The notes beneath the pieces are model-generated. The model worked only from the letters and a program-made list of their open reading frames with translations, was not told where the DNA came from and did not search any database. A stretch of 64,000 bases of DNA from an uncultured Gammaproteobacteria bacterium (GTDB lineage: Bacteria; Patescibacteriota; Patescibacteriia; UBA11705; JABHMO01), in contig CAZPYM010000001.1 of the NCBI GenBank assembly GCA_964590105.1, positions 431,782-495,781 of the forward strand, given 5' to 3'. Made by a program: the position numbers and the translations under genes. Of this stretch, positions 11,396 to 54,035 are shown in pieces. Every line of letters starts with the position of its first letter. The stretch's first letter is position 1.

Positions 11396-11503
11396 GCCTA
11401 ACCATATATACTATTTTAGCTTAGAAATATACTTTTGACAAATGGGATTAATCACATTATTCGAACAACCACTTATTCAAATTTAGACAAAATCGAACAA
11501 CTA

Positions 11504-11532
11504 TTGACATTTACCGCACGGCATGCTATAAT
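11504..11532 (+). promoter_or_regulatory. consensus sigma70 promoter with extended -10 (TTGACA-17-TGcTATAAT)
   Basis: TTGACA 11504-11509; spacer 17 nt; TG 11524-11525; TATAAT 11527-11532; about 50 nt upstream of ATG 11582. Confidence 0.6.
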
Positions 11533-11581
11533 TAACTTTTGATCAATAATGTTCATTGCTCTATACAGTGGGAGGGAAATC

Positions 11582-12010
11582 ATGACGACTGATTCTGACA
11601 TGAAAGAGTACGAGGCCAGAAAGCAGAAGGCGCGACAAGCGGCCGAGGCGGAAGCTCGGCGAATCGCGGACGCGGAAACAGCCAAACTGGCCGGCGTCAG
11701 CCGGCACGTGCCGAAACAGGACTTCACCGACATGTGGCAAGAAGTGTACGACGTGGCCATTGCCAACATCATGGAATCATTCGAATTCGAAGAAGACATG
11801 CGCGACATTGACGCACAGATGCAGTACCCGTTCCCCGATGAAGCGCCGGATGCATTTGAACACGGATTCGACGCAGAAGGCAAGCTCGGCCTTCGCCGCC
11901 GGAATGTGTTCACCGACGCGGATTGCATGGACATGGCCATGTGTGAGGAGGAGCGCTGGAACGACGACTGGGTCATGACCGAAGAAGCATGGGGGCTGGA
12001 TCGCGATTGA
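11582..12010 (+). CDS. highly acidic hypothetical protein (142 aa; 37 D/E, net charge about -20, aromatic-rich), GC-rich cassette; DNA-mimic / anti-restriction candidate
   Basis: ATG 11582 preceded by GGAGGG 11571-11576 (5-nt spacing); GC about 58%; composition counted from the translation; own promoter and terminator. Confidence 0.7.
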   Translation: MTTDSDMKEYEARKQKARQAAEAEARRIADAETAKLAGVSRHVPKQDFTDMWQEVYDVAIANIMESFEFEEDMRDIDAQMQYPFPDEAPDAFEHGFDAEGKLGLRRRNVFTDADCMDMAMCEEERWNDDWVMTEEAWGLDRD

Positions 12011-12029
12011 TCTGGCCACCAGACAATAG

Positions 12030-12066
12030 CCCGCCTTTCGCGCAACGCGATTGGCGGGTTTTTTTA
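12030..12066 (+). terminator. rho-independent terminator
   Basis: CCCGCC-TT-TCGCG-CAA-CGCGA-TT-GGCGGG stem followed by TTTTTTTATTT. Confidence 0.7.
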
Positions 12067-18171: not shown

Positions 18172-19932
18172 CTATTCCTGTTCCTCCACTTCCTTGCTGA
18201 CACGGAAGACTTCTTCCATAGTCGTAACACCAAGCAGTGCCTTGATAAGTCCATCCTGGATAAGGTTTATTCTCCCGAGCCTATCCAGTTCCTTTTCTAC
18301 TTCGACTTGAGCAAATCCATTGGCAATGATTATTCTCATTTTGTCGGAAATAGGCAGAGCCTCCGAAATTACCACGCGACCGCTATAGCCCGTGTTTTTA
18401 CAGACCGGACACCCTTTGCCCTTGTAACCGAACAATTCATTTTTTGTTAAATCAATCTCTGCCGGCAATTTATCCGCCGATATGTCCTTTAATTGCTGGC
18501 GAACTCGAACCGCCACATCTGCAGGCAACGGATATTGCTCTTTGCATTTTGAACAAATTCTGCGGCTCAATCTCTGGGCAATAATCAGATTGAGCGTTGA
18601 AGCCAGCAAAAACGGCTCCAATTTCATATCAATCAAACGCGGTATGGCTCCAAGAGAATCATTGGTATGCAAAGTGGAGAACAACAGATGACCGGTCAGT
18701 GCGGCGTGCACTGCCATTTCCGCAGTTTCATTATCGCGAATCTCTCCAACCATGATAATATCCGGATCTTGTCGCATAAGCGAACGCAAACCCGAGGCAA
18801 AAGTAAATTTTACTTCAGGCCGGACTTGCGCCTGATTGATGCCGGGAATATTGTATTCCACCGGATCCTCAAGCGTAGTGATATTCACCCCTTCCTTATT
18901 TAATTCGCTAAGAATTGAAAAAAGTGTGGTCGATTTACCGGAGCCCGTCGGACCAGTCACCAAAATCATGCCGTAGGTTTGTTCCAGCGCTTTTTTTACT
19001 ATTGCTCTGATTGAATCGCTGAATCCAAGCTGTTCCAAAGTCAAAGCCTTGTTTGACATGTCCAATATTCTGAGAGTAGCTTTTTCCTTGCCGGCCAAGG
19101 GCATAATCGATACTCGCAAATCATATCCTTGCTGACCGGTTTCATATTTAAAGCGACCATCTTGCGGCACTCTGGTTTCATCAATCTTCAAGTCTGATAA
19201 AACCTTTATTCTAGAAATAACAGAATCGTGGATATAGCCAGGCAGAGTAAGTACAGTATTTAATATGCCATCAATGCGGAAACGAACGCGGGAAATATTT
19301 TCGTACGGTTCAATATGAATATCAGAGGCTCGGCTCTCAATGCCATGTTTCACAATCATAGAAACGATTTGAGAAACCGGCGCGCTCTTGATTACCTCTT
19401 CAATATTTTCAGTTGAAACATCTTCAAGTTCTTTTTCTTTCCTTTCTTCTTCCACTTGGCTGACTGCCGTCGCCACGTCCGTGCCAAAAGCTCCATATTT
19501 TTTTAATGCTTCCTGCCAGGCATAAACTGAACATAAATAATATTCCACCGCAAAGTTCTTGTTTGCGGCCCAAAAATCAATTGCCTCTCTGGCATTGTAA
19601 TCTTCCGGCTTGGCAATGGCGATTTTTAATTTTTTGTCCTCCCTGGAAAAACAAATGGCAAAATGCTGCTCAGCCAATGTTAATGGCAGGACAGCCTGGG
19701 CATCTTCGGGAATATTTTGCTGTAAAAGAGAAATATATGGATAATTAAAAAATTCCGCCTCCGTTTGAGCCAGTCTTTCCGCATCGATAAATCCGCCTTT
19801 GACAGCCACTTCTCTTAATTCCTTATTAGCATTTGCGGCTAAAATATTTTCCAGCTCCCGCAATTGCGCCTCCCTGATCACGCCTTTTTGTAATAAAAAA
19901 TTCAGCAGTTTTTTTTGTATTTCTTTAATCAT
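18172..19932 (-). CDS. pilB: type IV pilus assembly ATPase PilB (GspE family)
   Basis: Walker A VTGPTGSGKSTT, Asp box, His box, tetracysteine CSKC...CPVC; 586 aa. Confidence 0.88.
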   Translation of the reverse strand: MIKEIQKKLLNFLLQKGVIREAQLRELENILAANANKELREVAVKGGFIDAERLAQTEAEFFNYPYISLLQQNIPEDAQAVLPLTLAEQHFAICFSREDKKLKIAIAKPEDYNAREAIDFWAANKNFAVEYYLCSVYAWQEALKKYGAFGTDVATAVSQVEEERKEKELEDVSTENIEEVIKSAPVSQIVSMIVKHGIESRASDIHIEPYENISRVRFRIDGILNTVLTLPGYIHDSVISRIKVLSDLKIDETRVPQDGRFKYETGQQGYDLRVSIMPLAGKEKATLRILDMSNKALTLEQLGFSDSIRAIVKKALEQTYGMILVTGPTGSGKSTTLFSILSELNKEGVNITTLEDPVEYNIPGINQAQVRPEVKFTFASGLRSLMRQDPDIIMVGEIRDNETAEMAVHAALTGHLLFSTLHTNDSLGAIPRLIDMKLEPFLLASTLNLIIAQRLSRRICSKCKEQYPLPADVAVRVRQQLKDISADKLPAEIDLTKNELFGYKGKGCPVCKNTGYSGRVVISEALPISDKMRIIIANGFAQVEVEKELDRLGRINLIQDGLIKALLGVTTMEEVFRVSKEVEEQE

Positions 19933-19962
19933 TCAGACGTTATTAATATCAAATTTTTAATT

Positions 19963-20364
19963 TTAATCTTCCTGAACCGGCGCTTCTGGGGCTAGTTCCT
20001 TTGCTTGATTTTGTTTTCCCGCGGCTAAAGTCGCGCTTTTTTCCGCTTCAAAAGGATTTTCTTTTGGGCCCACAATTTCTTCCGCTACGAGCGGCCAATC
20101 GCCATTCTTTTGCAAATCATTAAATTTTTTGTCTTCCTGCAAGTATCCCTTGATTACATTCAAGTCATCAATTGTCTTTGTTCCTTCCCCGGACAAAAAA
20201 TAATAATCAGAAGGGCTCGCAAGCAGACTCTGATATTGCGGTTGAAAATAAAAACGCTCGGCGCTCCAAATTCCCACCGCCAAAATTATTATGGCGGCTA
20301 TAACTATCGCCGCCACAGTCGCCTCTTTATTCTTCCGGCTCCGGCTCTTCATATTGTTCACCAA
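19963..20364 (-). CDS. hypothetical single-TM protein in the pilus locus
   Basis: N-terminal TM (AAIVIAAIIILAVGIW), low-complexity C-terminus; overlaps the upstream gene by 38 nt. Confidence 0.45.
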   Translation of the reverse strand: MVNNMKSRSRKNKEATVAAIVIAAIIILAVGIWSAERFYFQPQYQSLLASPSDYYFLSGEGTKTIDDLNVIKGYLQEDKKFNDLQKNGDWPLVAEEIVGPKENPFEAEKSATLAAGKQNQAKELAPEAPVQED

Positions 20365-21013
20365 AGTAATAAGTATTTAAAGTCAGACTATAAACATTGC
20401 TGTCTGGAGTATAAGCAATTGACTTGATATCCAGTAATCTTAAATTGTTTTCAATATCCGCCAAATAATTTTTAAATGTAAAATAATCTCCGCCCTTGAC
20501 ATTTAGCGTCAAGATTAGTTTATTCAACTGACGAGCGGCGACGCCTTCTTTTTCTTCAAGATTTTCGCCGGCGGCAATATCAAGTGAGCCAAGAAATAAA
20601 TTATTTTTTATGGCCAAGGCCTCCAATTGAACAAATATTCCCGGCAAATCTTTTTCTAAAGGTAATATATCAATAATTTTTTTCGAAGATTCGCCGATGT
20701 TATCAAAATCAATTTTTATTGACTTCGCTCTACCGAGTTCTTGTTCTTTTTCCGCGAGTACTGCTTGTTTTTGAACTATCCTACTTTTAATATCTTCAAT
20801 ATCAGTCCGATACAGCAAAAAACTAGCCGCCACAAAAACGCAAAGCGCTGCCGCTATGACCAATAATAACAATAGTTTATATATTTTAATAAAAGACTCG
20901 GCAAACGACACAAAGCCGCCTCTTTTTATTTTTTTATCGCTAATAATTTCCGACGAATGGCGGATTGTCTCTGGTTTTGGTTTGTTGTTTCGTGCTTCGG
21001 AAGAATTTAACAT
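20327..21013 (-). CDS. PilO-like pilus assembly protein
   Basis: Single TM, coiled coil, then a C-terminal domain with PilO-like topology; position between the pilN-like gene and pilB. Confidence 0.5.
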   Translation of the reverse strand: MLNSSEARNNKPKPETIRHSSEIISDKKIKRGGFVSFAESFIKIYKLLLLLVIAAALCVFVAASFLLYRTDIEDIKSRIVQKQAVLAEKEQELGRAKSIKIDFDNIGESSKKIIDILPLEKDLPGIFVQLEALAIKNNLFLGSLDIAAGENLEEKEGVAARQLNKLILTLNVKGGDYFTFKNYLADIENNLRLLDIKSIAYTPDSNVYSLTLNTYYFGEQYEEPEPEE

Positions 21014-21056
21014 AATAATTTATCAACGAATGCGGATAACACAGGGTGAAGGTTAT

Positions 21057-22175
21057 TTATTTTAGTAAAGCATTGTCCATCAGATGCAGGGTAATATTGA
21101 ATTCTATTGGAAAATAATTTGCCGGCAACTCTGGTTCGGTCATTTCGGTCTCAAAGGCAAACTCGTCTACTGTTTCTTCGGCAGACTGGCTGGCTGAACT
21201 GACTTCCACACTTTGGACAAAATCAGCCTTTTGAAAAATCTGCAGCTGCTCGGCCACGCTATGATAAGTCTTGGTTTTTGCGGTTAATAATATATCCCCA
21301 TTGCTCTCAGCAACAAAATTTGTGTAATAAACATCTTTGGCAATATTGTGTTCTAGCTCGTCAAATAAAGCGGTCCAATATATATGATTTTCCAAAAGCA
21401 CTTGCAATATTTTTGCCCTTTCATACAAATTGTCTGCCTGCAGCTGATCAGAACTGAATGAATTGATCTCCGCTTCAGTCTGCGATATTGACTGCATTAA
21501 ACCAGAATACTCACCAGCCAATTTTATTTTTTCAAATTTGATTACCAAAAACACCCCTGAAAATAACAACAAAAACATCAAAATAACTACCAGCAGCACA
21601 TTCAACCGTCGCCAAAACTGGGTGCGAACAATTCCCACATAATCTTCGGAAATTAAATTGATTTCTGCCGGCGGTTTTTTGAATCTAATCACAGCCAAGC
21701 CCCGTTGAAAAAGGCTGGCCAATGACTTCGAAGTTTTAACATCTTCTATTTCATCCGCTGTTTCACGAATTATTTTTTTACCGGTGCCATTCAACTTATC
21801 AATAATTTGCGGGATCTTCATGCGGAAAGTACTATCCGCTGGTGGCTGTTTGACTTCGATTATAGGCCTTGGCAATGGTGGAATTGGCGGCACCAGGGCT
21901 ATCGACGGAGTCGGAGGTGTTGGCAGAACCGACCTTAATTCAGGTTTTTTTTTAATTCGAAAAATTCCCCTTTTTTGCGGTTGGTCTTTTTGTTCTAGTC
22001 CGATTTTAATTGTCTGCTCAGATTTTGCCAGTCCTGATAAATCCTTTTTTCCTGCTAATTTCTCCGGCAAGTGCATTTCAAATTTCTTGGCCCCCATCGC
22101 CTCCTGCACTTTTTTCTTTTCCAATTCTTCTTTTTCTTTCAAATCATCAGGCAGCAAACTGATTCCATTTGACAT
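21057..22175 (-). CDS. PilN-like pilus assembly protein with a proline-rich N-terminal extension
   Basis: Central TM (LLVVILMFLLLFSGVFLVI) followed by a PilN-like periplasmic region; immediately downstream of pilM. Confidence 0.5.
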   Translation of the reverse strand: MSNGISLLPDDLKEKEELEKKKVQEAMGAKKFEMHLPEKLAGKKDLSGLAKSEQTIKIGLEQKDQPQKRGIFRIKKKPELRSVLPTPPTPSIALVPPIPPLPRPIIEVKQPPADSTFRMKIPQIIDKLNGTGKKIIRETADEIEDVKTSKSLASLFQRGLAVIRFKKPPAEINLISEDYVGIVRTQFWRRLNVLLVVILMFLLLFSGVFLVIKFEKIKLAGEYSGLMQSISQTEAEINSFSSDQLQADNLYERAKILQVLLENHIYWTALFDELEHNIAKDVYYTNFVAESNGDILLTAKTKTYHSVAEQLQIFQKADFVQSVEVSSASQSAEETVDEFAFETEMTEPELPANYFPIEFNITLHLMDNALLK

Positions 22176-22251
22176 ATTTAATTCAGTTTATAAGGTTCGT
22201 AAAATTCGTAAAGTTTATCAAGTTTGCGCCAAAGGCGGAAACTTTTAACTT

Positions 22252-23364
22252 CTACTCAATATCTCTCATGGCAAGCCCGATGGCAGTAGCCAGACGCGGT
22301 CCGATATTTTCCAGAACCGGTTGCATTTCTTCCGGATATATTACCCGCGACCAGGGATTGCCGATGAATGTTTTTATACCCAGATTGTCAGTAAAATATT
22401 TTGACATGTTAAACAACTTGGCGGTGCCACCTGATAAAACTATTCTTTCAATTTTTTTGCCTTTGTTGCCCGGCTGTTCTGTGTAAAAATTCATAGTGTA
22501 TTGGACCTCGTCCATGATTGCTCTCACCGGACGCTCGATAATTTCCGGCAAGGTCGCGCCATCCTGAAGCAACTCTGAATCGCCGGACAAATCCCGCTTA
22601 AATTGTTCTGCCTGACTTTCGGCAACATTTAATGTCTCGGCTATCTCTCTGGTAATTTCCAGCCCGCCAACACCCAGACTCCGACTTAAAAGAGGAATGG
22701 CGTTTTCTATTACAGATATATCAGTATTCACCGCGCCGATATCAACGAGAACAACTGTTGCTTTGTCTTTGCCGACAAGTGAACGCGCCAGGGCAAAAGA
22801 TTCGGTTTCTAAACTAATTAAATCCAGATTAGCTTTCTTGAAAATCTCAATGTATTTTTGAACCACTTCTTTTGAAGCGCCCGTAAGCAACACCTGTAAA
22901 TTTTTTATTTTATCCAACTTGGCTGTTTCTTTGTTGGTCAAAATATCATCTGAAGCTATAACTTTCCAATCCAGAATCATTTCTTCAAGCGGCAACGGCA
23001 AAACTTTTTTTGCCTCCCATTCAACTGCGGCAGTAATTTTTTTTGGCGAAGCCAGATCTTTTTTGCTAATTTCACTCAAAGAAATAATTGAACTAAAAAC
23101 CGCCGGCGCAGGTAAGGCTGTAACCGCTCTTTTGGTAATGACTTTGCTTTGTTGTGTAACTTTTTTGATTAATTCGGCAGTTTGTTCCGGTTGATCAATC
23201 AATTTTGCGCCCTCGCCTTTGAGCGATCGCTCCAAATAACCGTAAGTAACCAATTGCGCCCGGCCATTATTATTGGTCAATTCAACCAGCTTGATACTGC
23301 TGCCGCCAATGTCAATGCCAAGATAATTTGTGTCTGTTGAGCTGGTTTTTGAAAATAGTCCCAT
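22252..23364 (-). CDS. pilM: type IV pilus assembly protein PilM (actin-like ATPase)
   Basis: LGIDIGGSSIKLVEL..., actin-fold phosphate motifs (VDIGAVNTDISV, LSGGTAKL). Confidence 0.8.
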   Translation of the reverse strand: MGLFSKTSSTDTNYLGIDIGGSSIKLVELTNNNGRAQLVTYGYLERSLKGEGAKLIDQPEQTAELIKKVTQQSKVITKRAVTALPAPAVFSSIISLSEISKKDLASPKKITAAVEWEAKKVLPLPLEEMILDWKVIASDDILTNKETAKLDKIKNLQVLLTGASKEVVQKYIEIFKKANLDLISLETESFALARSLVGKDKATVVLVDIGAVNTDISVIENAIPLLSRSLGVGGLEITREIAETLNVAESQAEQFKRDLSGDSELLQDGATLPEIIERPVRAIMDEVQYTMNFYTEQPGNKGKKIERIVLSGGTAKLFNMSKYFTDNLGIKTFIGNPWSRVIYPEEMQPVLENIGPRLATAIGLAMRDIE

Positions 23365-23399
23365 ATAAGTTTATTAGTAAATAAATGATGAGTAGTGAA

Positions 23400-23455
23400 A
23401 AAATTACAAACCACAAACAACAAATCACAGGCAAATCACGAATTACAAACAAAAT
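23400..23455. repeat. heptamer-word repeat (AAATTACAAACCACAAACAACAAATCACAGGCAAATCACGAATTACAAACAAA) upstream of pilM
   Basis: Read directly; reverse-orientation copy of the TTTGTAA family. Confidence 0.65.
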
Positions 23456-23663
23456 GAAGATGTGAAATAAAATAAACGTTAGGAGACCTAAGAAGATAGA
23501 AAAGAAAAGACGGCTACCCCAATTTCTAATTTCAAATTTCTAGTTTCGCTTCTTCCTCCCTTACTCTTCTCACCCATTTCCATTCTTATTCGTTCATACT
23601 GATATTCCACAAAATTTATTATATCATTTTTCAACTAAAAAAGGAATTATTTATACACACCAA

Positions 23664-25253
23664 TTATTTTTTTATTTTTGGCAAGGCTTTCGCCAGATCA
23701 ACAAAGCCCAGCGGCGGGTTGGAAATAACCCTAGAGTCATAAATCACTCTTTCCGCTGACTCATTCAATCCTTGTTCAGAGTAATTGCGCTGAAACTTGA
23801 ATTCATGCGCTACCATTAGGCCCTGAACTTCAAGCGGCTTATCAATTTGCCCTTCTCCTTTCGTGCCGGTATTTATTGTCCCCTCCGCAAAATAACTGCC
23901 AACCACTTTTGTTACATTCGGATCAATGTAAATATTGCCACCGCCGCCATCGTCATTCTTTATAACAATCCAACCGATTGAAGCCAACTTTTTCAAGCTG
24001 TTTACAGACGTTAACTGGTAATATTGATTACCCTTAACATGCAGGTCGCCACGAACAATAATCGTACCGGCGCCGCTATAATTTGAATAACCATTATAAA
24101 TAACTTTCGCGGGTACGCTCAAATCATGATTTGAATAATACACATTTCCTTTTAAATAATTGTCATAAAATGTAGCCGCAGTAATCTTTTTTACTGGTCC
24201 GTATTGCTCTGCCAACATACCTTTTATGTCTAAAAGCCCCAATTCTGATTGATAAGCGCTTTCTTGTTTTGGCAGATTAAGGAGACCGACCTCGTCACTC
24301 ACCCAGTCGGCTGACCCGCACTGACCGGTCGCTTCACATTCTGAAGAAAAGTGAACTATACTGCCATTGCTTTGAACCATGTAAGTTGCGTTATAACTGT
24401 CCTCTGGCGTCACACCCTGGTACATTGAACCAACTCCCTTTTGCCCATAGACATCTCCGCCTATTGTTTCCAAGTACGGAGGATTAATTATTGCTTGTGA
24501 CTCTAATGGATGAAATCCCAACCAACCAAAGCCAGTCCCATTTCCATTACCATTCCAACCCCAACCAATTAGCATGTTATTTGAATAATCAATACCAACG
24601 CCGTATTTGTAACACTTGTCGCACTGATAACAGATATTCCCTACGCAATTACTACAGGCTTCGCAAATCTCCTGGCTACCAGAAAAATCTTCAGAAGCAA
24701 AACAAATTCCGCAACGCTCTCTGCTTTCATCTTTTAATAAAGCGCAGTTGCGGCAGGCGTATTTTTTGCCCGACAAATTAACTTCCGGCCCCAAAAGCTT
24801 CAGCCAGCCGTCGGCGCCAATTGAAGTCCAGGCCGCCCAGCCGTCAATAAGGCCATGGTCGGAAAGTCTGACTTGCGGAGCAAAGCCGTCAGGCGTGACT
24901 GCCAGATTAGGCAAACTCGGACCGGTACAGCTCTCGCCAAAACACAGCCAGCCGACATTTTCCGACCAGGCATAGCCGTTTAATTTACCCGTATTGGAAT
25001 CATAATCAACGCCATAATCAGTTTGAATACATTTATTGAGAATTTCTTCGTTATAGCAATTGAGCGACACCCAGCCGATATTTTCCGACCAGGCAAAACC
25101 GCTGACTTTGTGATTTTTGCTGGCGTTGACGGCGAAGTCTCCGGAGAGCAAAAAGGCAATAAAACAAAAAATCAATAAAGCAAAAAAGCAATAAAGCGAT
25201 TTATCTCTTAAATGAAATCGCGCCAAAAAATTTTTAACCGGTTGTTTTGCCAT
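23664..25253 (-). CDS. large Cys-rich secreted / membrane-anchored protein with GYAWSENxGW repeats (start corrected to MAKQPVKNF)
   Basis: N-terminal signal anchor (LYCFFALLIFCFIAFLL); repeated SGFAWSENIGWVSL / NGYAWSENVGWLCF; more than 30 Cys; pilus-locus neighbour. Confidence 0.6.
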   Translation of the reverse strand: MAKQPVKNFLARFHLRDKSLYCFFALLIFCFIAFLLSGDFAVNASKNHKVSGFAWSENIGWVSLNCYNEEILNKCIQTDYGVDYDSNTGKLNGYAWSENVGWLCFGESCTGPSLPNLAVTPDGFAPQVRLSDHGLIDGWAAWTSIGADGWLKLLGPEVNLSGKKYACRNCALLKDESRERCGICFASEDFSGSQEICEACSNCVGNICYQCDKCYKYGVGIDYSNNMLIGWGWNGNGNGTGFGWLGFHPLESQAIINPPYLETIGGDVYGQKGVGSMYQGVTPEDSYNATYMVQSNGSIVHFSSECEATGQCGSADWVSDEVGLLNLPKQESAYQSELGLLDIKGMLAEQYGPVKKITAATFYDNYLKGNVYYSNHDLSVPAKVIYNGYSNYSGAGTIIVRGDLHVKGNQYYQLTSVNSLKKLASIGWIVIKNDDGGGGNIYIDPNVTKVVGSYFAEGTINTGTKGEGQIDKPLEVQGLMVAHEFKFQRNYSEQGLNESAERVIYDSRVISNPPLGFVDLAKALPKIKK

Positions 25254-25333
25254 GTGTTTATTATACAACAAATTATCGCAAATAAAAAATCGCCCTGTCT
25301 TAACAGAACGATTGTCTTGCTTATAAAATCTCG

Positions 25334-25591
25334 CTACATCCAAACCCGAGGATCATTGTTCGGATCATCGTCGTCAGCTTCCTGCCAAACATCCAACCAT
25401 TTGCCGACAACAAACGAAGCGAGCCCTATGCCCAGCCCGACGACCGCCGCACAAAACGTTTGTACATCGCTCAAATTGATAATTTGAAACGTCGGCCCCA
25501 GCAATATGGCGCCGGCCACAATCAAACAGCCAAGCGTCATTCCCAAACGCGGCAAAAAATATTTCAGAGAATTCTTCATGGCCACCTCCAC
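25334..25591 (-). CDS. small hypothetical membrane protein (two TM)
   Basis: Two hydrophobic helices, acidic C-terminus (EADDDDPNNDP). Confidence 0.4.
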   Translation of the reverse strand: MEVAMKNSLKYFLPRLGMTLGCLIVAGAILLGPTFQIINLSDVQTFCAAVVGLGIGLASFVVGKWLDVWQEADDDDPNNDPRVWM

Positions 25592-26163: not shown

Positions 26164-27900
26164 TTAGCTTTTACATTTTACCTTCAAATCCACAACTTTA
26201 AACTCAAATTCCCGATTCCCATTCCATTCATTAATACCAAGTTCGCACACTGCCTCTATTGTATCACCGACACGAAGCTTTTCCAACCACTCTTTTGCTT
26301 TTCCAAACCAAAGCATTTTGTAAAGCTGGGGACTTTCTTGTTTTACGCTAAGCCGCAAATGAGTTTGATCCTGGCCAATGGCATCCATGGCGGCAATTTT
26401 CAAATCCCTGATTACAAAAAGCGGTTTTGAATTGCCCTCGCCAAACGGAGCAAATTTTTCTAGCTGTCCCAAAAAATCAAAGTCAATTTGATTGATTTGG
26501 ATTTCAGCGTCAACATCGAGTACCGGCCGTAAATCAATTTCGCCAAGCTCTTTTTCCACGTGCTTGGTAAAATCATTTTCAAATTGCTCGCGAACCTCAA
26601 TCTCAGTCAATGTAAATCCGCAGGCACCGGCATGACCGCCATATCGAGCGAAAAAATTATTAACTGAATGCAACCCCTGAATAATATTAAATTCCGCGAT
26701 TGAACGGCCGGATCCTGTAACTTTTCCGTTGGAAAGCGTCATGGCGATTGCCGGACGATAAAACTCGTCACTAAGCCGCCCAGCAATCAGGCCAACAATT
26801 CCGGGTAACCAGGTCTCATCATATACAAAAATAATTTTTTTTGTTTCAATTGATTCAATCTGCAATTTAGCTTCTTCCAACGCCTTAATAATTACCTTCT
26901 GGCGCGCCTGATTATTCTCCTGCAATTCCAAAGCTATTCGCTCAGCTTCCAACGCATTTTCGGAAACTAATAATTCATAAGCAACGCTCGCGTGGTTCAT
27001 CCGACCAGCGGCATTTAGTCTCGGCGCGATTTGGAATCCGATTGTAAAAGAATTAATCCCCTTGGAACCAATTGATTCGAGCAACTTTTGCAATCCCACC
27101 CAGCGCGTTTGTTCCAACACTTTCAATCCCCACTTAACCAAAACTCTATTCTCGCCAATAATCGGTGCCACATCAGCCACCGTTCCTATCGCCACAATGT
27201 CCAGCAGCCATTTTTGAAATCCTTCAACCCCTCCATAAACGTGGAACGTGGAACGTGGAACGCGGCTGACATCAGTTAACAGTCCGCAAATTAACTTATA
27301 AGCAACTCCCGCGCCGACCAGCTCTTTGAACGGATAGCCGCTATTATCTACTTTGGGATCTAAAATTGCGTAAGCATCCGGCAATTCCAAAAGTGGCTCA
27401 TGGTGATCCGTAACGATGACATCAATCCCCATTGTGTTTAGGGTGGCGATTTCTTGCACATTAGTTATACCGCAATCAACTGTAATCAAAAGTTTTGTTC
27501 CCTGAACACGAAAGTTGTTCAGATTCTCCATGTTTAATCCATAACCATCGTCTTCCCGATGCGGGATGAAGACTTCCACTTCTGCGCCAAGCAATTTAAG
27601 GGTCCGGGACAAAATAGCTGCGCTAGTAACTCCATCAGCATCATAATCGCCGTGAATTAAAATTCTTTCCTTCTTTTCAATCGCCGACCAAATACGCTGG
27701 ACCGTCTTTTCCATGTCAGTAAACAAGAATGGATCATAGAGCTTTTCATATTCAGGATTAAAAAAATAATCAATTGCCGATTGACTTATCAAACCTCTGT
27801 TATATAATAGCTTTGCAATAATCGGATGATAGCCCGCAAGCTTAGTTTTAAACTCATCCGGTGGAGTATCTTTGATTTTCCAACTTTTTGACATATACAC
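26164..27900 (-). CDS. recJ: single-stranded-DNA-specific exonuclease RecJ
   Basis: DHH motifs (ILIHGDYDADGVTSAAIL, DHHE), DHHA1 region (GGHAGACGF), 578 aa. Confidence 0.88.
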   Translation of the reverse strand: MYMSKSWKIKDTPPDEFKTKLAGYHPIIAKLLYNRGLISQSAIDYFFNPEYEKLYDPFLFTDMEKTVQRIWSAIEKKERILIHGDYDADGVTSAAILSRTLKLLGAEVEVFIPHREDDGYGLNMENLNNFRVQGTKLLITVDCGITNVQEIATLNTMGIDVIVTDHHEPLLELPDAYAILDPKVDNSGYPFKELVGAGVAYKLICGLLTDVSRVPRSTFHVYGGVEGFQKWLLDIVAIGTVADVAPIIGENRVLVKWGLKVLEQTRWVGLQKLLESIGSKGINSFTIGFQIAPRLNAAGRMNHASVAYELLVSENALEAERIALELQENNQARQKVIIKALEEAKLQIESIETKKIIFVYDETWLPGIVGLIAGRLSDEFYRPAIAMTLSNGKVTGSGRSIAEFNIIQGLHSVNNFFARYGGHAGACGFTLTEIEVREQFENDFTKHVEKELGEIDLRPVLDVDAEIQINQIDFDFLGQLEKFAPFGEGNSKPLFVIRDLKIAAMDAIGQDQTHLRLSVKQESPQLYKMLWFGKAKEWLEKLRVGDTIEAVCELGINEWNGNREFEFKVVDLKVKCKS

Positions 27901-28010: not shown

Positions 28011-28026
28011 TAAGGCAAAAAAAAGG

Positions 28027-28060
28027 CCGCCCATGGCAGACGCCGGGCGGCTTTGTTGTT
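28027..28060 (-). terminator. rho-independent terminator of the metallophosphoesterase cassette
   Basis: GCCGCCC...GGGCGGC stem (28027-28051); on the minus strand it is followed by CTTTTTTTTTGCC (A-tract 28013-28024 on plus). Confidence 0.6.
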
Positions 28061-28800
28061 CAACTTCCTTCATACAGTCGCTTGGTAAGAATACCGTCGA
28101 GATTGAGCTTTTTCATTTCAGCAACCGTTTCATCAATCCTGTACGAAACGCGCCGATACTCTGCCAAGAGCTTGTGGCGGAAAAAATCCACCACCATGTA
28201 ACAGGCGCGCGGGTCATCGTCGCGCGGCTGGCCGACGCTACCCACATTGATGGCGAACTTCGACGGGAAACGAACCTCCAGCGGCGAATGTGACATACCA
28301 AGCTTTACTAATCCATGCTTGATGTGGTAGATTGCCGGCTGATGAGTATGGCCAAAGAACAAAACCGGCGTCGCAACAGCCGTCAACTGCTGGCGGGCGA
28401 TATGTTCGTTGCGAATATACTCCCAGCCGTCAGGATCTGTCCAGTTCGCGTGAACCATTGAAATTCCCAGGTTGGGAATATCCATGGCCATTTCCAGTCC
28501 CCGCAAAAAGGCCAGATCATCAGCCTTGAGCATTTTGGCATTCTGCGCCATTGCCAACAACGCCGGGTAATTATGATTGGCCATGTTGCAGCCATGCCCC
28601 ACGCCAAAATCATGATTTCCCATGAGCGTCAGATTGCAATGCTCCCTGGCCCAAGCAATGCATTCCCGCGGAAACGGACCATAACCGGTCACATCGCCGA
28701 GGCAGTAGATCACATCAACGCCCATTGTGGCAATGTCTTTCGCAACGGCTCGCAGAGCCGGCCAATTGCTGTGAATGTCCGACAATATCGCCGCTCTCAT
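28060..28800 (-). CDS. calcineurin-like metallophosphoesterase (GC-rich cassette)
   Basis: Motifs DIHSN (D-x-H), LGDVTGYGP (GDxxDRG-like), LMGNHD (GNHD/E), FFGHTHQ; GC about 55%; SD AGGAGGA 5 nt upstream of ATG. Confidence 0.75.
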   Translation of the reverse strand: MRAAILSDIHSNWPALRAVAKDIATMGVDVIYCLGDVTGYGPFPRECIAWAREHCNLTLMGNHDFGVGHGCNMANHNYPALLAMAQNAKMLKADDLAFLRGLEMAMDIPNLGISMVHANWTDPDGWEYIRNEHIARQQLTAVATPVLFFGHTHQPAIYHIKHGLVKLGMSHSPLEVRFPSKFAINVGSVGQPRDDDPRACYMVVDFFRHKLLAEYRRVSYRIDETVAEMKKLNLDGILTKRLYEGS

Positions 28801-28850
28801 TGTATCCTCCTATCGTTGTTTTGCTAAATATTACCAAACTAAAACATTAT

Positions 28851-28879
28851 ATGATAGCATGACAACCAAAGATTGTCAA
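28851..28879 (-). promoter_or_regulatory. sigma70 promoter with extended -10 (TTGACA-17-TGcTATCAT on minus strand)
   Basis: Reverse complement of plus 28874-28879 = TTGACA; reverse complement of 28851-28856 = TATCAT, preceded by TGc. Confidence 0.5.
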
Positions 28880-28940: not shown

Positions 28941-28973
28941 CAAAAAACAAAGCAGCGCCTGATACGCTGCTTT
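28941..28973 (-). terminator. rho-independent terminator downstream of lepA
   Basis: Minus strand AAAGCAGCG-tatcagg-CGCTGCTTT followed by GTTTTTT. Confidence 0.6.
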
Positions 28974-28996
28974 ATAAAACAATTTAATCTCACATT

Positions 28997-30826
28997 TTAT
29001 CGCTTCATCACCGCAAGAAAAGCTTCCGGCGGAATATTCACTTTCCCTTTACCCAACGCCATCATTTTCTTTTTACCTTTTTTCTGCTTGGTGAGAAGTT
29101 TTTGGCGGCGACTATAATCACCGCCGTAAAGTTTGGCGGTCACATCTTTTCGCAAAGCTGAAATGCGTTCCGCGGCAATAATCTTGCCGCCAAGCGCCGC
29201 CTGCAATTTGATCACAAACTGCTGGCGAGGAATCGTGGCTTTCAGACCCTCAACAATTTTTTTTCCAACTTTAAATGCCGCGTCTCGATAAACAATCGTG
29301 CCAAAAGCTTCAATCGAATCTTCCGCAACTAAAATATCCAGCTTCAAAAGTTCAGCCGGCTTATAGTTGTCAATTTCATAATTCATTGAGCCGTAGCCGG
29401 AAGTTACGGTTTTTAATTTATCATAAAAATCAACAATCAACATGGCCAAAGGAATTTTGTAATGCAAAATCACTCTGGTTTCGTCAATAAATTCAGTATT
29501 TAAATATTCGCCGCGGCTCTCCTGCACCAAAGTCATAACATTGCCCATAAAATCTTTTGGCGCTACAATGTCAACCTTCATAATCGGCTCTTCCATATGA
29601 TCAATTTGCGACGGATCGGGAAATTCATTTGGATTTTTTATTAAATATTCCACATCAGACAAGATTTGTTCTGTTTTCACTCCCTTGGGAAATTTAGCGC
29701 CCGGCTTTAACACAACCTTGTAAGCCACGCTCGGAACAGTCACCACCAAGTCCAGATCAAATTCCCGCCTTAGCCGCTCCTGAAAAATTTCCAAGTGCAG
29801 CATTCCGAGAAATCCGCAGCGAAAGCCAAAACCAAGGACCGGAGAATTTTCCGGCTCGTAAGCCAGCGCGGCGTCATTTAATTTTAATTTGCCAATCGCT
29901 TCACGCAGTTCACTGTATTCGTTTCCTTCCTGACAAAATATGCCGGCGTAAACCATTGGCTTGACTTCTTTGTAGCCGGCCAAAGGCTGGGCTTTGCCTC
30001 GCTCTTTTAAAAGTGTAATCGTATCGCCGACCCGGCACTTTTCGATCTCCTTTAACCCGGTAACGACATAACCGATTTCACCGGCGCCTAATTTGTCTTT
30101 TGGAATTAAATTCGGTTTCAAAATTCCGCAATCCAGAACTTCGCCCAGAGCCTCTGTTCCGGCCATAAATATCTCATCGCTCTTTTTTATTTCCCCATCT
30201 ACAATACGGGCATAAGCAACCACGCCCTTGTATTCATCGTAATAAGAATCAAATATCAAGGCGCGGAAAGGCAAAGCCAGACTGCCTTTTGGTGCGGGAA
30301 CCTTTTCTATTACAGCCTGTAAAATTTCCAGTACTCCTTCACCGGTTTTAGCGCTGCACTTTAATATTTCCTCCGGCCTGCAACCGACAAGATTAATAAT
30401 CTCGTGCATTACCTTTTCAACATTGGCCGCCGGCAAATCAATTTTATTTATAACCGGAATAATTTCCAGTCCCTGCTCAATTGCCAAATATAAATTCGCC
30501 AGCGTCTGCGCCTGTACTCCCTGCGCCGCATCAACGAGAAGCACCGCGCCTTCGACCGCCGCGAGCGACCTGGAAACTTCATAATTAAAATCAACATGCC
30601 CAGGGGTATCAATTAGGTTCAGAATATAATCCTGGTAATTCATGCGGGCGGGCTGCAGTTTGATTGTAATTCCCCTTTCTCGCTCTAAATCCATTGTATC
30701 CAAAACCTGTTCTTTCATATTTCTCTTTTCTACAGTTCCGGTTAATTCCAAAAAACGGTCAGCCAGAGTACTTTTCCCGTGATCTATATGTGCTATTATA
30801 CAAAAATTTCTTATTTTATTCATCAT
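28997..30826 (-). CDS. lepA: elongation factor 4 (LepA); start corrected to MMNKIRNF
   Basis: FCIIAHIDHGKSTLADR G1 motif, DTPGHVDF, NKIDL; LepA-specific C-terminal domain. Confidence 0.88.
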   Translation of the reverse strand: MMNKIRNFCIIAHIDHGKSTLADRFLELTGTVEKRNMKEQVLDTMDLERERGITIKLQPARMNYQDYILNLIDTPGHVDFNYEVSRSLAAVEGAVLLVDAAQGVQAQTLANLYLAIEQGLEIIPVINKIDLPAANVEKVMHEIINLVGCRPEEILKCSAKTGEGVLEILQAVIEKVPAPKGSLALPFRALIFDSYYDEYKGVVAYARIVDGEIKKSDEIFMAGTEALGEVLDCGILKPNLIPKDKLGAGEIGYVVTGLKEIEKCRVGDTITLLKERGKAQPLAGYKEVKPMVYAGIFCQEGNEYSELREAIGKLKLNDAALAYEPENSPVLGFGFRCGFLGMLHLEIFQERLRREFDLDLVVTVPSVAYKVVLKPGAKFPKGVKTEQILSDVEYLIKNPNEFPDPSQIDHMEEPIMKVDIVAPKDFMGNVMTLVQESRGEYLNTEFIDETRVILHYKIPLAMLIVDFYDKLKTVTSGYGSMNYEIDNYKPAELLKLDILVAEDSIEAFGTIVYRDAAFKVGKKIVEGLKATIPRQQFVIKLQAALGGKIIAAERISALRKDVTAKLYGGDYSRRQKLLTKQKKGKKKMMALGKGKVNIPPEAFLAVMKR

Positions 30827-52839: not shown

Positions 52840-52910
52840 GTATTGATTTAATCTGTTCATTTCACTAACCGTCTCAGGCAGCTATGCCACAAATAGCAAA
52901 GGGAGAAAAC

Positions 52911-54035
52911 ATGGGAAAGAAAGCGTGGACATTCGCAATTCTGCTGGGGCTTGTAGCTTCTATTTCCGTACCATGGATTGTTATCAAGATCGTTGCCAAG
53001 ACGCAGAGCCCCGAGACGCACGAGCCGACGATGATGGAGAACGGCGACAACCCGGTAGAGTCCGGCCAGGACGAGCCCACAATGATGGAAAACAGCGACA
53101 ACCCGGTAGAGTCAAGCCAGGACGAACCCACGACTCTTCGCCTGCCGATGTACGTACAAACGACGGTCCAGGCGCGCCTCCTCACGATGGAGGAACTGGC
53201 CTTGGACTTTCCGGAAAACTATGACATTGAACAACGGGGTGACTATCACAGAATCGCCAAGAACTGCACGGCGACCGAACTGGCCACCAAGGCTGATTGC
53301 CTGCCGCTCACCGGCTGGTTCAAGAAGGCTTACTTGAAGTCTGACGGTTCCATTACCGTGGACTTCCAATGCAATCCAAACGACTCGCGAATGTGTACCG
53401 TGCTTTTGCGCGGACCTGTAAGCGATGGAACTGTCTACGGCTGTGGTCTTCCGGATGCGGCCCTCGAAGATATCCTCGTCATGGACTTACTTGGCGCCGG
53501 ATATAGCCTTCTGAAAGACGGGGCAGTCGAATACATCCGCTACGGCGGCAAAGACCTAACCGGCGGCCACCATTCATTCTTCATCAAGGACGGCCTGATC
53601 TATGGTAGGTACGGAACCGATGAAGAGCTCGTGCGCCGCGCTGACGGCTCGTTTGTCCGCGAAAGCGGCTCGTTCGCCGAGCAGATCAGGAAAGAGGCTC
53701 AGGCTAAGAAAGTGCTGGACTTTCTCGGCTCCGGATACTCCATGCGCTACGACGCCGTGTTCGAGTTTATCCAATACGACAAGCAGGACGTGGTGCCTCG
53801 CGGCTACCATTACTACATCCTCCGCGATGATCGGATCTACGGCATTCTCGGCGCGACCGAAGAGGAAGTTCTCGCCAACCGGCCGAAGATTCCGCCAGAA
53901 AAAAGGGATATGATCGGTCAATCATGTCTTTGTCCGGATCTCGGACTTGGGACATGGGTGGAACTCGGGTACAAAGAGCTGGTCTGCGTTCATCTGCCGG
54001 AAAGAGGTCCCATCTGCCATTCCAACTGCTTCTAG
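52911..54035 (+). CDS. secreted hypothetical repeat protein (GC-rich cassette; alternative upstream start 52884)
   Basis: Signal peptide MGKKAWTFAILLGLVASISVPWIV; tandem EPTMMENxDNPVESxQD repeats; duplicated about 55-aa module (LLGAGYSLLKDGAVEYIRYGGKD... / FLGSGYSMRYDAVFEFIQYDKQD...); SD GGGAGA before 52911; GC about 57%. Confidence 0.65.
   Translation: MGKKAWTFAILLGLVASISVPWIVIKIVAKTQSPETHEPTMMENGDNPVESGQDEPTMMENSDNPVESSQDEPTTLRLPMYVQTTVQARLLTMEELALDFPENYDIEQRGDYHRIAKNCTATELATKADCLPLTGWFKKAYLKSDGSITVDFQCNPNDSRMCTVLLRGPVSDGTVYGCGLPDAALEDILVMDLLGAGYSLLKDGAVEYIRYGGKDLTGGHHSFFIKDGLIYGRYGTDEELVRRADGSFVRESGSFAEQIRKEAQAKKVLDFLGSGYSMRYDAVFEFIQYDKQDVVPRGYHYYILRDDRIYGILGATEEEVLANRPKIPPEKRDMIGQSCLCPDLGLGTWVELGYKELVCVHLPERGPICHSNCF

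What the first reader, a model, noticed from the sequence alone, without database searches (positions are those of the whole stretch)
28027..28879. Stand-alone calcineurin-like metallophosphoesterase cassette between recJ and lepA
Phosphoesterase motifs are complete (D-x-H, GDVTGYG, GNHD, GHTH). GC is about 55%. It has its own TG-extended promoter, SD AGGAGGA and an oppositely oriented terminator. Metallophosphoesterases of this size occur as effectors in several phage-defence and anti-defence contexts and as phage-encoded Ser/Thr phosphatases. Here it is a single-gene insertion beside a DNA-repair exonuclease.
Basis: partly seen in the sequence, partly recalled or inferred. Interest (0 to 1): 0.5.

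Follow-up and report, generated by a model that had tools for sequence, protein, structure and literature searches.

The report
Conserved GC-rich stand-alone metallophosphoesterase gene
A complete single-gene unit for a metal-dependent phosphatase lies between lepA and recJ in a small candidate-phyla-radiation bacterium; it is an old, vertically inherited housekeeping-type gene and not a mobile defence cassette, but its persistently high GC content is unexplained.

Summary
A 246-aa ORF (28060-28800, minus strand) encodes a calcineurin-like metallophosphoesterase (MPE) with all metal-binding motifs. It has its own near-consensus promoter, a strong Shine-Dalgarno site and a strong terminator, and lies between lepA and recJ. 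Its GC is 52.6% (GC3 61%) against 42% for native genes (z about 6-9).

The defence/mobile reading does not hold. There are no PADLOC hits in the gene or its ten neighbours. Similarity to phage phosphatases is at superfamily level only. The family is large and cellular: 5,507 50%-identity clusters at E<=1e-10.

Its closest structures are 3RQZ (TM 0.87) and the Ap4A/ATP hydrolase SapH (TM 0.80).

lepA-MPE-recJ is conserved in seven lineages that form one RecJ clade (84/100 bootstrap). MPE divergence tracks RecJ and LepA. Outgroups have an empty junction or other cargo, so this was one ancient insertion that became fixed.

The substrate is unresolved. Relatives are translationally coupled to FHA-domain proteins or sit in tight operons with Hanks-type kinases, which slightly favours a phosphoprotein phosphatase over a SapH-like nucleotide hydrolase.

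One real puzzle remains: the syntenic orthologues are also GC-elevated although synonymous sites are saturated. This is a new member of a known kind, of low to moderate interest.

The parts
28851..28879 (-). Sigma-70-type promoter of the MPE gene: -35 TTGACA (28879-28874), 17-nt spacer with TG at -15/-14, -10 TATCAT (28856-28851).
   Evidence: 11 of 12 matches, TG present. Equivalent TTGACA-16/17-TAT(T/A/C)(A/C)T promoters lie upstream of the orthologues in L006, L005 and L089.
28805..28811 (-). Shine-Dalgarno AGGAGGA, 4 nt upstream of the ATG.
   Evidence: Read directly from the sequence.
28060..28800 (-). CDS of a 246-aa calcineurin-like metallophosphoesterase of the 3RQZ/SapH-like subfamily. 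Metal ligands and catalytic residues are D8, H10, D36, N62, H63, H117, H151, H153. The family motif GSVGQPRD occupies residues 187-194.
28017..28052 (-). Intrinsic terminator of the MPE gene: interrupted GC-rich hairpin (28025-28052) followed by U8 (28017-28024 on the plus strand are A8).
   Evidence: -19.9 kcal/mol, z -2.55. Orthologues in L006 and L005 also have a hairpin plus T-run directly after the stop codon.
28947..28975 (-). Terminator-like hairpin after lepA. It insulates the MPE unit from upstream transcription.
28997..30826 (-). lepA (EF4 GTPase), the upstream neighbour. The likely true start is at the MMNKIRNF methionines.
26164..27894 (-). recJ (DHH, DHHA1, RecJ_OB), the downstream neighbour, separated from the MPE stop codon by about 165 bp.

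Best explanation
What it is. A monocistronic, constitutively expressible housekeeping gene of a Patescibacteria (CPR) genome. It encodes a cytoplasmic binuclear-metal phosphohydrolase of the uncharacterised 3RQZ-like branch of the calcineurin-like superfamily. The nearest characterised relative is the streptococcal ATP/Ap4A hydrolase and phosphodiesterase SapH.

How it works (inferred from superfamily chemistry). Two metal ions are held by D8/H10/H153, the bridging D36, and N62/H117/H151. They activate a water or hydroxide that attacks a phosphate ester, and H63 of the GNHD motif assists the leaving group. A C-terminal helical cap and the invariant GSVGQPRD, R217, Y220 and R241 residues shape substrate choice.

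History (shown). The gene entered the ancestral lepA|recJ junction once, at the base of a subclade. It has since been inherited vertically in all seven sampled lineages of that subclade and kept under purifying selection. It is not a mobile, phage-derived or defence element.

Substrate (inferred, not shown). I favour phospho-Ser/Thr proteins, that is a PPP-like antagonist of Hanks-type kinases (about 0.4). A SapH-like nucleotide or dinucleoside-polyphosphate hydrolase is nearly as likely (about 0.3).
For: Family and fold:
- Pfam Metallophos_2 and Metallophos.
- 3RQZ matches at E 1.4e-36 over the full length; SapH at 7e-8.
- AF2 model has pLDDT 95.3. TM is 0.87 to 3RQZ, 0.80 to SapH and 0.78 to 1NNW/2GJU, then drops to about 0.5 for lambda phosphatase, YfcE, Vps29, calcineurin and ApaH.
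- All catalytic residues are invariant in 56 homologues and in 17 CPR homologues.
- The family is large and cellular: 13,291 / 5,507 / 341 50%-identity clusters at E<=1e-3 / 1e-10 / 1e-30.

Vertical inheritance:
- lepA-MPE-recJ is present in the window, L005, L006, L089, L091, L092 and L173.
- These seven form one clade in a RecJ tree, 84/100 bootstrap, with the empty-junction L009 as sister.
- MPE pairwise identities rank as RecJ, LepA and RnhA identities do.
- The L089/L091 pair has the same synonymous retention in MPE (0.35) as in RecJ (0.30).
- CPR MPEs cluster together in an NJ tree.

Insulated transcription unit: own promoter and terminator here and in L005 and L006.

Not defence or phage. 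Neighbours are type IV pilus genes, RNase HI, MurJ, acetate kinase and PTAC.

Substrate hint:
- In the sister CPR clade the MPE is followed at 12-23 bp by a Pkinase gene.
- In 5 of 59 non-CPR loci a double-FHA protein gene is upstream; in the three loci inspected it abuts or overlaps the MPE start codon.
- Motif III keeps its His (GNHD), unlike GNWE in SapH.
Against: - No member of the 3RQZ-like branch has a published activity that I could find, so the substrate is inference only.
- FHA or kinase linkage is seen in a minority of loci. NusB (11/59) and acylphosphatase (5/59) are equally common neighbours.
- No kinase was found in the 64-kb window. The rest of the 564-kb genome could not be checked.
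- The PPP signature motifs (GDxHG, GDxVDRG) are absent.
- The strong, persistent GC excess is unusual for an old resident gene and is not explained by this account.
- The NJ trees are distance-based, and the MPE tree has no support values.
Confidence: 0.7

Rival explanations
1. SapH-like nucleotide hydrolase. The enzyme clears ATP, Ap4A or other dinucleoside polyphosphates, or generic phosphodiesters (nucleotide housekeeping or alarmone turnover), and does not act on proteins.
For: SapH is the only biochemically characterised protein with the same overall fold and cap (TM 0.79-0.80; PDB title 'asymmetric Ap4A hydrolase and phosphodiesterase'; E 7e-8). N-terminal matches to YfcE-type phosphodiesterase models. 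JGI names for relatives include 'predicted phosphodiesterase'. The one phage homologue is annotated as a phosphodiesterase.
Against: Only 21-22% identity to SapH, which has lost the motif III histidine (GNWE versus GNHD). All NCBIfam nucleotide-hydrolase models score below their cut-offs: YfcE 36 vs 56, PRK09453 35 vs 117, ApaH 16 vs 176. Within-family gene context points to FHA proteins and kinases instead.
Confidence: 0.3
2. Nucleic-acid end-processing partner of RecJ and RNase HI. The MPE would act as a 3'-phosphatase or 2',3'-cyclic phosphodiesterase that heals ends before exonucleolytic processing. On this view the conserved MPE-recJ-rnhA order is functional.
For: MPE-recJ adjacency is kept in seven lineages whose synonymous sites are saturated. 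In another clade the same slot holds a 2H/LigT-like phosphoesterase (L013, L015, L027), a different fold with end-healing or cyclic-phosphodiesterase chemistry. One non-CPR homologue is followed by ligA, two are preceded by priA and one by a DHH protein.
Against: The MPE is transcriptionally insulated from recJ by a strong terminator and 140-335 bp spacers. None of about 55 non-CPR RecJ loci has an MPE within 6 kb. The same slot also holds unrelated cargo: an NTP-transferase, an Imm40 protein and membrane proteins. The whole murJ-lepA-recJ-rnhA block is syntenic across the class, so adjacency may be inheritance only.
Confidence: 0.1
3. One reading: a recently acquired foreign cassette (defence effector, anti-defence gene or phage-type Ser/Thr phosphatase) dropped next to recJ. 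Its GC excess would be the residue of that transfer.
For: Strong compositional outlier: GC +10 points, GC3 z about 8.6, with the shift in all codon classes. Self-contained promoter and terminator. The lepA|recJ junction is a variable slot in relatives and once carries an Imm40 immunity gene. The window also holds three other GC-rich islands of about 53-56% GC; the two searched are strict orphans.
Against: Orthologues sit at the same locus in seven lineages forming one RecJ clade, with congruent divergence. No PADLOC hit in the gene or its neighbours. No mobility genes nearby. The subfamily is essentially absent from phages. The closest sequences are other CPR proteins.
Confidence: 0.04
4. For the composition only: the locus is vertically inherited, but the allele is repeatedly replaced, or gene-converted, from GC-richer members of the same clade through the conserved lepA and recJ flanks. 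Alternatively, gene-specific selection or GC-biased conversion holds GC3 high.
For: The GC excess recurs in syntenic orthologues: L006 51.2 vs 38.6%, L005 55.9 vs 50%, L091 47.7 vs 42%. Across the clade MPE GC stays at 46-56% while host GC ranges from 39 to 51%. The wider family shows no intrinsic offset: 78 loci, mean -0.6 points, sd 3.0, max +7.6. Flank 4-fold sites retain only about 0.22 (upper bound 0.30) of the ancestral state per lineage since the window/L006 split, so passive decay would need an impossible starting GC3 above 1. The slot is demonstrably variable.
Against: No donor allele closer than 64% identity was found. The MPE's own synonymous retention is poorly measured (n=47, upper bound 0.48 per lineage), which still allows slow amelioration from a donor with GC3 of 0.80-0.85. 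The lepA and recJ gene ends are not clearly GC-enriched. Three lineages (L173, L092, L089) show little or no excess.
Confidence: 0.35

Closest known systems
PDB 3RQZ, metallophosphoesterase from Sphaerobacter thermophilus (structural genomics, no published function)
   Same: Same length (246 aa). Full-length alignment at E 1.4e-36 and 34-35% identity, TM 0.84-0.87. Same motifs, including GDxVGYGP, GNHD, GHTH and GAVGQPRDGDPRA.
   Different: It comes from a high-GC Chloroflexi-type organism and has no functional data, so the match names the subfamily but not the activity.
SapH / Spr1479 of Streptococcus pneumoniae (PDB 3QFM/3QFN/3QFO), asymmetric Ap4A/ATP hydrolase and phosphodiesterase
   Same: Same catalytic core plus C-terminal cap architecture, TM 0.76-0.80. 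Shares SDIHGN, the LGD motif and the GSxGQP motif.
   Different: Only 21-22% identity. Motif III is GNWE in SapH and GNHD here. The GYGP loop is replaced. The SapH activities are known to me from the PDB titles and from memory of Jiang et al. 2011 (J Biol Chem); the paper was not retrievable here.
PPP-family Ser/Thr phosphatases (lambda phosphatase / NinI, PP1/PP2A, bacterial PrpA/PrpE, ApaH)
   Same: Same superfamily fold and binuclear chemistry. JGI labels relatives COG0639 'ApaH / Ser/Thr PP2A family'. Relatives are gene-linked to FHA proteins and Hanks-type kinases.
   Different: GDxHG and GDxVDRG are replaced by SDIHSN and GDVTGYG. TM is only 0.46-0.51 to lambda phosphatase and about 0.37 to ApaH. 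The PHROG NinI-like hit is partial (residues 5-131, E 4e-8). The ApaH model scores 16 bits against a cut-off of 176.
YfcE / MJ0936-type phosphodiesterases (Pfam Metallophos_2, TIGR00040)
   Same: Best Pfam model is Metallophos_2, and the N-terminal 60 residues match the YfcE models.
   Different: Scores fall below the family cut-offs (36 vs 56 bits). YfcE is about 180 aa and lacks the C-terminal cap. TM is 0.45.

Membership tests
Calcineurin-like metallophosphoesterase superfamily (PF00149 / PF12850) | Five motifs: DxH, GD, GNH[DE], H, GHxH, on a beta-alpha-beta-alpha-beta sandwich fold. | tested here: met
   D8/H10, G35-D36, G61-N-H-D64, H117 and G150-H-T-H153 are all present and invariant in 56 homologues. 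Pfam scores are above the gathering thresholds. Confident model, pLDDT 95.3.
3RQZ / SapH / 1NNW-type capped MPE subfamily (about 240-270 aa) | Full-length similarity, including the C-terminal helical cap and the GS(V)GQP(R)D motif. | tested here: met
   E 1.4e-36 to 3RQZ over residues 1-244. TM 0.87 / 0.80 / 0.78 to 3RQZ / SapH / 1NNW, with the next folds at 0.57 or below. GSVGQPRD is invariant.
SapH-type Ap4A/ATP hydrolase (activity) | Mn-dependent hydrolysis of Ap4A, ATP and bis-pNPP. | not testable with these tools
   Needs enzymology. Only 21-22% identity, and motif III differs.
PPP Ser/Thr protein phosphatases (lambda phosphatase / NinI, PP1/PP2A) | Signature motifs GDxHG, GDxVDRG and GNHE. 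| tested here: not met
   The sequence has SDIHSN and GDVTGYG, and only GNHD matches. TM 0.46-0.51 to 1G5B. Partial PHROG hit. Best viral structures reach TM 0.57 or less.
Symmetrical Ap4A hydrolase ApaH | Match to the equivalog model NF001204 above its cut-off. | tested here: not met
   16.2 bits against a cut-off of 176. TM about 0.37 to E. coli ApaH.
YfcE family phosphodiesterase (TIGR00040) | Score above the curated cut-off; a protein of about 180 aa without a cap. | tested here: not met
   36.3 bits against 56.25, and only residues 1-64 match.
Mre11 / SbcD nucleases | MPE domain plus a DNA-binding capping domain, with a Rad50/SbcC partner. | tested here: not met
   No Mre11 or SbcD Pfam domains. 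The protein is only 246 aa. No SbcC-like neighbour. Mre11/SbcD-like viral structures match at TM 0.5 or less.
Class III cyclic-nucleotide phosphodiesterases (CpdA / Rv0805 / GpdQ type) | Close fold or sequence match to CpdA/GpdQ. | tested here: not met
   GpdQ reaches only TM 0.45, and no CpdA-type hit appears among the top matches. No NCBIfam match.
Known anti-phage defence systems with MPE components | Match to a PADLOC model and presence of partner genes. | tested here: not met
   0 PADLOC families at E<=1 for the MPE and 0 at E<=1e-3 for ten neighbours. PADLOC-DB is v2.0.0 of 2023, so later systems are not covered.

The most novel reading that the evidence does not exclude
Two linked possibilities. 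(a) The 3RQZ-like MPE family is an unrecognised class of bacterial phosphoprotein phosphatase that partners Hanks-type kinases and FHA proteins in place of PP2C. (b) In this CPR clade, its gene is held 10-13 GC points above the genome by a gene-specific force. Candidates are recurrent allelic replacement or GC-biased conversion at a recombination-prone lepA|recJ slot, or selection on the mRNA. This would be a rare case of persistent compositional disequilibrium in a vertically inherited gene.
Probability: 0.15. Interest if true: 0.5.

Novelty: new member of a known kind. Interest (0 to 1): 0.22.

Why it matters
It mainly corrects a tempting misreading. A GC-rich, self-contained single gene next to a repair nuclease looks like a mobile defence cassette, but here it is an old resident gene. 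Composition alone is therefore a poor guide to recent transfer in CPR genomes.

Two smaller leads follow:
- A very large, uncharacterised MPE subfamily (thousands of clusters, one orphan crystal structure) has genomic links to FHA proteins and Ser/Thr kinases. That gives a cheap, testable functional hypothesis.
- The lepA|recJ junction behaves as a long-lived cargo slot in this CPR class. The MPE there keeps an unexplained GC excess across lineages whose synonymous sites are saturated. This could inform how composition evolves in reduced genomes.

Tried and rejected
- Structural RNA. An Rfam scan of the whole window found no RNA family, so no structured RNA explains the GC island.
- AlphaFold database.
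- Translational selection as the cause of high GC3. Rejected, because the G/C shift appears in 4-fold, pyrimidine-ending and purine-ending codon classes alike.
- A protein-level constraint as the cause. Rejected, because family members in other low-GC hosts (35-40% GC) match host GC.
- Assembly chimera. Rejected, because the same junctions occur in four independent samples.
- Mobile origin. Rejected as a general property: 1 phage record, 12 viral contigs, and 89 mostly mega-plasmid or chromid records at about 35% identity or less.
- Taxon names. The cluster look-up gave no taxon name for the window's genome.
- First bootstrap script. It timed out and was rerun with a faster distance routine.
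Full report
**1. What is there**

The flagged interval brackets one complete transcription unit on the minus strand.
- The ORF 28060..28800 encodes 246 aa. It matches Pfam Metallophos_2 (1.3e-16) and Metallophos (2e-13).
- The four quoted motifs are present: D8-I-H10, G35-DVTGYG, G61-NHD, G150-HTH. So is H117. All are invariant in an alignment of 56 homologues and in 17 CPR homologues.
- Upstream lies a near-consensus promoter, TTGACA-17-TATCAT preceded by TG (28879->28851, 11/12 matches). AGGAGGA sits 4 nt before the ATG.
- Directly after the stop codon is a GC-rich hairpin of -19.9 kcal/mol (z -2.55) followed by U8 on the minus strand. This is the gene's own terminator, not an oppositely oriented one.
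- lepA also ends in a terminator-like hairpin at 28975->28947. The unit is therefore insulated on both sides.
- The flanks are RecJ (DHH, DHHA1, RecJ_OB) and LepA, both also on the minus strand.
- The same arrangement is seen on contigs from four independent samples, the longest 563,767 bp, so it is not an assembly artefact.

**2. Composition**

- The CDS has GC 52.6% and GC3 60.7%. Twenty-seven native genes of the window have GC 42.1+-1.8% and GC3 41.8+-2.2%. That gives z of about 6 for GC and about 8.6 for GC3.
- The G/C shift is seen in 4-fold, pyrimidine-ending and purine-ending codons alike. It is therefore a general compositional shift and not selection for particular codons.

**3. Family and fold**

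- The protein belongs to a very large family of stand-alone proteins of about 241 aa. There were 3,644 hits in the word-indexed search. There are 13,291 / 5,507 / 341 50%-identity clusters at E<=1e-3 / 1e-10 / 1e-30.
- The family is spread over many phyla, including Eisenbacteria, Binatia, Planctomycetota, Zixibacteria and Patescibacteria.
- The best solved relative is 3RQZ from Sphaerobacter, a structural-genomics entry (E 1.4e-36, full length). Next is SapH/Spr1479 (E 7e-8).
- An AlphaFold model built on 56 sequences is confident: pLDDT 95.3, pTM 0.93.
- It superposes on 3RQZ at TM 0.87, on SapH at 0.80, and on the Pyrococcus hypothetical proteins 1NNW and 2GJU at 0.78. TM then drops to 0.57 or below for lambda phosphatase, YfcE, Vps29, calcineurin, GpdQ and ApaH.
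- NCBIfam models for YfcE, PRK09453 and ApaH all score far below their cut-offs.
- It is therefore a member of a capped-MPE subfamily whose only characterised member, SapH, is distant (21-22% identity) and has GNWE where this protein has GNHD.

**4. Defence or phage origin?**

- PADLOC gives no hit for the protein, even at E<=1, and none for ten neighbouring proteins.
- PHROG hits are weak and partial: NinI-like, residues 5-131, E 4e-8.
- The best viral predicted structures reach only TM 0.55-0.57.
- The family is found in 1 of 50,697 phage records (Vibrio phage Va2, 32% identity) and at 12 loci among 2.9 million IMG/VR contigs. It also occurs in 89 plasmid records, mostly mega-plasmids or chromids, at about 35% identity or less.
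- The window neighbours are housekeeping genes: PilB-, PilM- and PilN-like proteins, RNase HI, RecJ, LepA, MurJ, acetate kinase, PTAC, an HD protein and a PfkB kinase.
- There is no integrase or transposase nearby.

**5. Neighbourhood comparison**

- Exact or related proteins were traced to contigs. lepA-MPE-recJ is conserved in L005 (MPE 64% identical), L006/7/8 (44%), L089/L090 (40%), L091 (40%), L092 (41%) and L173 (41%).
- Pairwise MPE identities rank as RecJ, LepA and RNase HI identities do. Window/L005 and L089/L091 are the closest pairs in every protein.
- L089/L091 is the only pair whose synonymous sites are not saturated. There, 4-fold-site retention in the MPE (0.35) equals that in RecJ (0.30). 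The gene is as old as its flanks.
- A scan of species-representative genomes with a RecJ profile returned 80 loci.
- murJ-lepA-recJ-rnhA synteny is widespread in this CPR class, whose relatives are labelled Falkowbacteria, Magasanikbacteria and 'Parcubacteria'. No MPE was found in the lepA|recJ gap of those loci.
- The gap content varies:
  - Empty, with 117-244 bp spacers: L009, L016, L018, L029, L030, L034, L035, L045.
  - A 2H/LigT-like phosphoesterase: L013, L015, L027.
  - An NTP-transferase: L019.
  - An Imm40-domain protein: L017.
  - Membrane or unknown proteins: L010, L028.
- In a RecJ neighbour-joining tree the seven MPE-bearing lineages form one clade (84/100 bootstrap), with the empty-junction L009 as sister.
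- CPR MPEs also cluster together in an MPE tree (NJ, no support values).
- Conclusion: one insertion into the ancestral lepA|recJ junction at the base of this subclade, then fixation.
- Promoter plus terminator insulation is also conserved in L005 and L006. In L089 the promoter was found but no terminator.

**6. The part that stays odd**

| Lineage | MPE GC (%) | Flank GC (%) |
|---|---|---|
| Window | 52.6 | about 42.5 |
| L006 | 51.2 | 38.6 |
| L005 | 55.9 | 50 |
| L091 | 47.7 | 42 |
| L089 | 46.2 | 42.5 |
| L092 | 50.0 | 46.5 |
| L173 | 52.4 | 51.6 |

- In the kinase-linked CPR clade (L174-L176) and in 78 metagenomic loci of the wider family there is no systematic offset: mean -0.6 points, sd 3.0, max +7.6. 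Members in 35-40% GC hosts match their hosts. The protein therefore does not require GC-rich coding.
- Between the window and L006, 654 four-fold sites in flanking genes retain only 4.9% (95% interval 0.5-9.1%) of ancestral identity. Under an F81-type model this is about 0.22 (upper bound 0.30) retention per lineage.
- On those numbers, the present GC3 excesses of +0.19 and +0.22 would require a GC3 above 1 at the split if they were passively decaying.
- Using the MPE's own noisy estimate instead (n=47, upper bound 0.48), a start at GC3 0.80-0.85 remains possible.
- Passive amelioration of one old transfer is therefore unlikely but not excluded. The alternatives are recurrent allele replacement from GC-richer clade members through the conserved flanks, GC-biased conversion at a recombination-prone slot, or selection on the mRNA.
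- I could not discriminate between them. No donor allele closer than 64% identity was found.
- The window holds three other single-gene GC-rich islands. Two of them have no homologue at all among 5.8 billion proteins. This lineage does carry GC-rich DNA of unknown source.

**7. How it most likely works**

Shown:
- An intact binuclear-metal active site under purifying selection.
- A capped MPE fold.
- An independent, strong-looking expression unit.

Inferred from superfamily chemistry:
- Two metal ions bound by D8/H10/H153, D36 (bridging) and N62/H117/H151 activate a hydroxide for attack on a phosphate ester.
- H63 assists the leaving group.
- The cap, together with the invariant R193, D194, R217, Y220 and R241, selects the substrate.

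Two readings compete for the substrate.

(a) Phosphoprotein phosphatase:
- In the sister CPR clade the MPE is followed, 12-23 bp downstream, by a Hanks-type kinase gene, in two lineages whose MPEs are only 47% identical.
- In 5 of 59 non-CPR loci a double-FHA protein gene lies upstream; in the three inspected (L094, L114, L162) it ends 8 bp before, abuts or overlaps the MPE start.
- One further locus has a kinase downstream.
- Motif III keeps its histidine.

(b) SapH-like nucleotide or Ap4A hydrolase or phosphodiesterase:
- This rests on the only characterised structural relative.

I favour (a) at about 0.4 against (b) at about 0.3. The caveats are that NusB (11/59) and acylphosphatase (5/59) are equally frequent neighbours, that no kinase lies in this window, and that the canonical PPP motifs are absent.

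A third reading is an end-healing partner of RecJ and RNase HI. It is suggested by the conserved adjacency and by a 2H phosphoesterase occupying the same slot in another clade. It is weakened by the terminator between the genes, by the absence of MPE-RecJ linkage outside CPR and by the unrelated cargo found in the slot. I put it at about 0.1.

**8. Comparison with known families and novelty**

- It is a new member of a known kind: the 3RQZ-like capped MPE subfamily, which is already annotated generically in databases as 'metallophosphoesterase family protein'.
- It fails membership tests for PPP phosphatases, ApaH, YfcE, Mre11/SbcD, class III cyclic-nucleotide phosphodiesterases and PADLOC defence components.
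- No literature on the subfamily's function was found.

**9. Verdict**

- The interpretation as a stand-alone inserted MPE unit is partly right, but the insertion is ancient and fixed.
- The defence/phage framing is not supported.
- Interest is low to moderate. It rests on the persistent GC disequilibrium and on the FHA/kinase linkage as a functional lead for a large uncharacterised family.

Noticed in passing
window 3539-4951 (-), 11549-12010 (+), 52884-54035 (+): Three further single-gene GC-rich islands (GC 55.8%, about 53% and 55.2% against 41.5% for the window), none with a Pfam hit. The 470-aa helical protein and the 383-aa secreted-looking, Cys-rich protein are strict orphans: each finds only itself among 5.8 billion proteins. 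The 383-aa protein carries a duplicated 'EPTMMEN(G/S)DNPVES(G/S)QDEPT' segment. Two of the three islands are on the plus strand in a window that is otherwise almost entirely minus-strand. The 190-aa minus-strand ORF 11473-12045 looks like a spurious antisense of the 153-aa acidic plus-strand ORF.
   Followed up: partly
L009-L045, the gap between lepA and recJ (e.g. L015:4838-5464, L027:5011-5595, L017:4833-5543, L019:5321-6004): The lepA|recJ junction is a long-lived variable cargo slot in this CPR class. It is empty in eight genomes. It holds a 2H/LigT-like phosphoesterase in one clade (L013, L015, L027), an Imm40 immunity-domain protein in L017, an NTP-transferase in L019, and membrane or unknown proteins in L010 and L028. 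The MPE occupies it in the window's clade.
   Followed up: partly
L174:4001-7569 and L175:1763-5435: In a sister CPR clade the homologous MPE heads a tight operon: MPE, a Hanks-type Ser/Thr kinase of about 262-265 aa (12-23 bp gap), an unknown protein of 319-349 aa, then pyruvate kinase. The arrangement is conserved between two lineages whose MPEs are only 47% identical. Here the MPE has host-like GC.
   Followed up: partly
L094:3226-4735, L114:661-2085, L162:461-2555 (also L100, L110): In five non-CPR metagenomic loci a protein with two FHA domains is encoded upstream of the MPE homologue. In the three inspected, its gene ends 8 bp before, abuts or overlaps the MPE start. In L162 the MPE is followed by NAD-dependent DNA ligase. 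NusB is the commonest upstream neighbour (11 of 59 loci), and acylphosphatase occurs in 5 of 59.
   Followed up: partly
L009, L014, L016, L017, L019, L025-L027, L029, L030 (record titles): Several 'binchicken' co-assembly MAGs titled 'uncultured Gammaproteobacteria bacterium' carry the CPR-type murJ-lepA-recJ-rnhA synteny. Their RecJ is 39-53% identical to the window's, and they nest among Falkowbacteria and Magasanikbacteria in the RecJ tree. Their record titles look taxonomically wrong.
   Followed up: no
window 18172-25343 (-): A type IV pilus-like cluster lies just downstream of rnhA: PilB-type ATPase 18172-19932, PilN-like protein 21057-22175 and PilM 22252-23364. It also includes a 559-aa Cys-rich protein with no Pfam hit (23664-25343). 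The same PilM gene follows recJ-rnhA in L089 and L092.
   Followed up: no
L177 (IMGVR_UViG_3300029286_002355, 186 kb) and L178-L188: Twelve IMG/VR 'viral' contigs, several of 90-255 kb, carry homologues of this MPE at 28-36% identity, with no RecJ or LepA nearby. I did not examine whether these are jumbo phages or misclassified cellular contigs.
   Followed up: no
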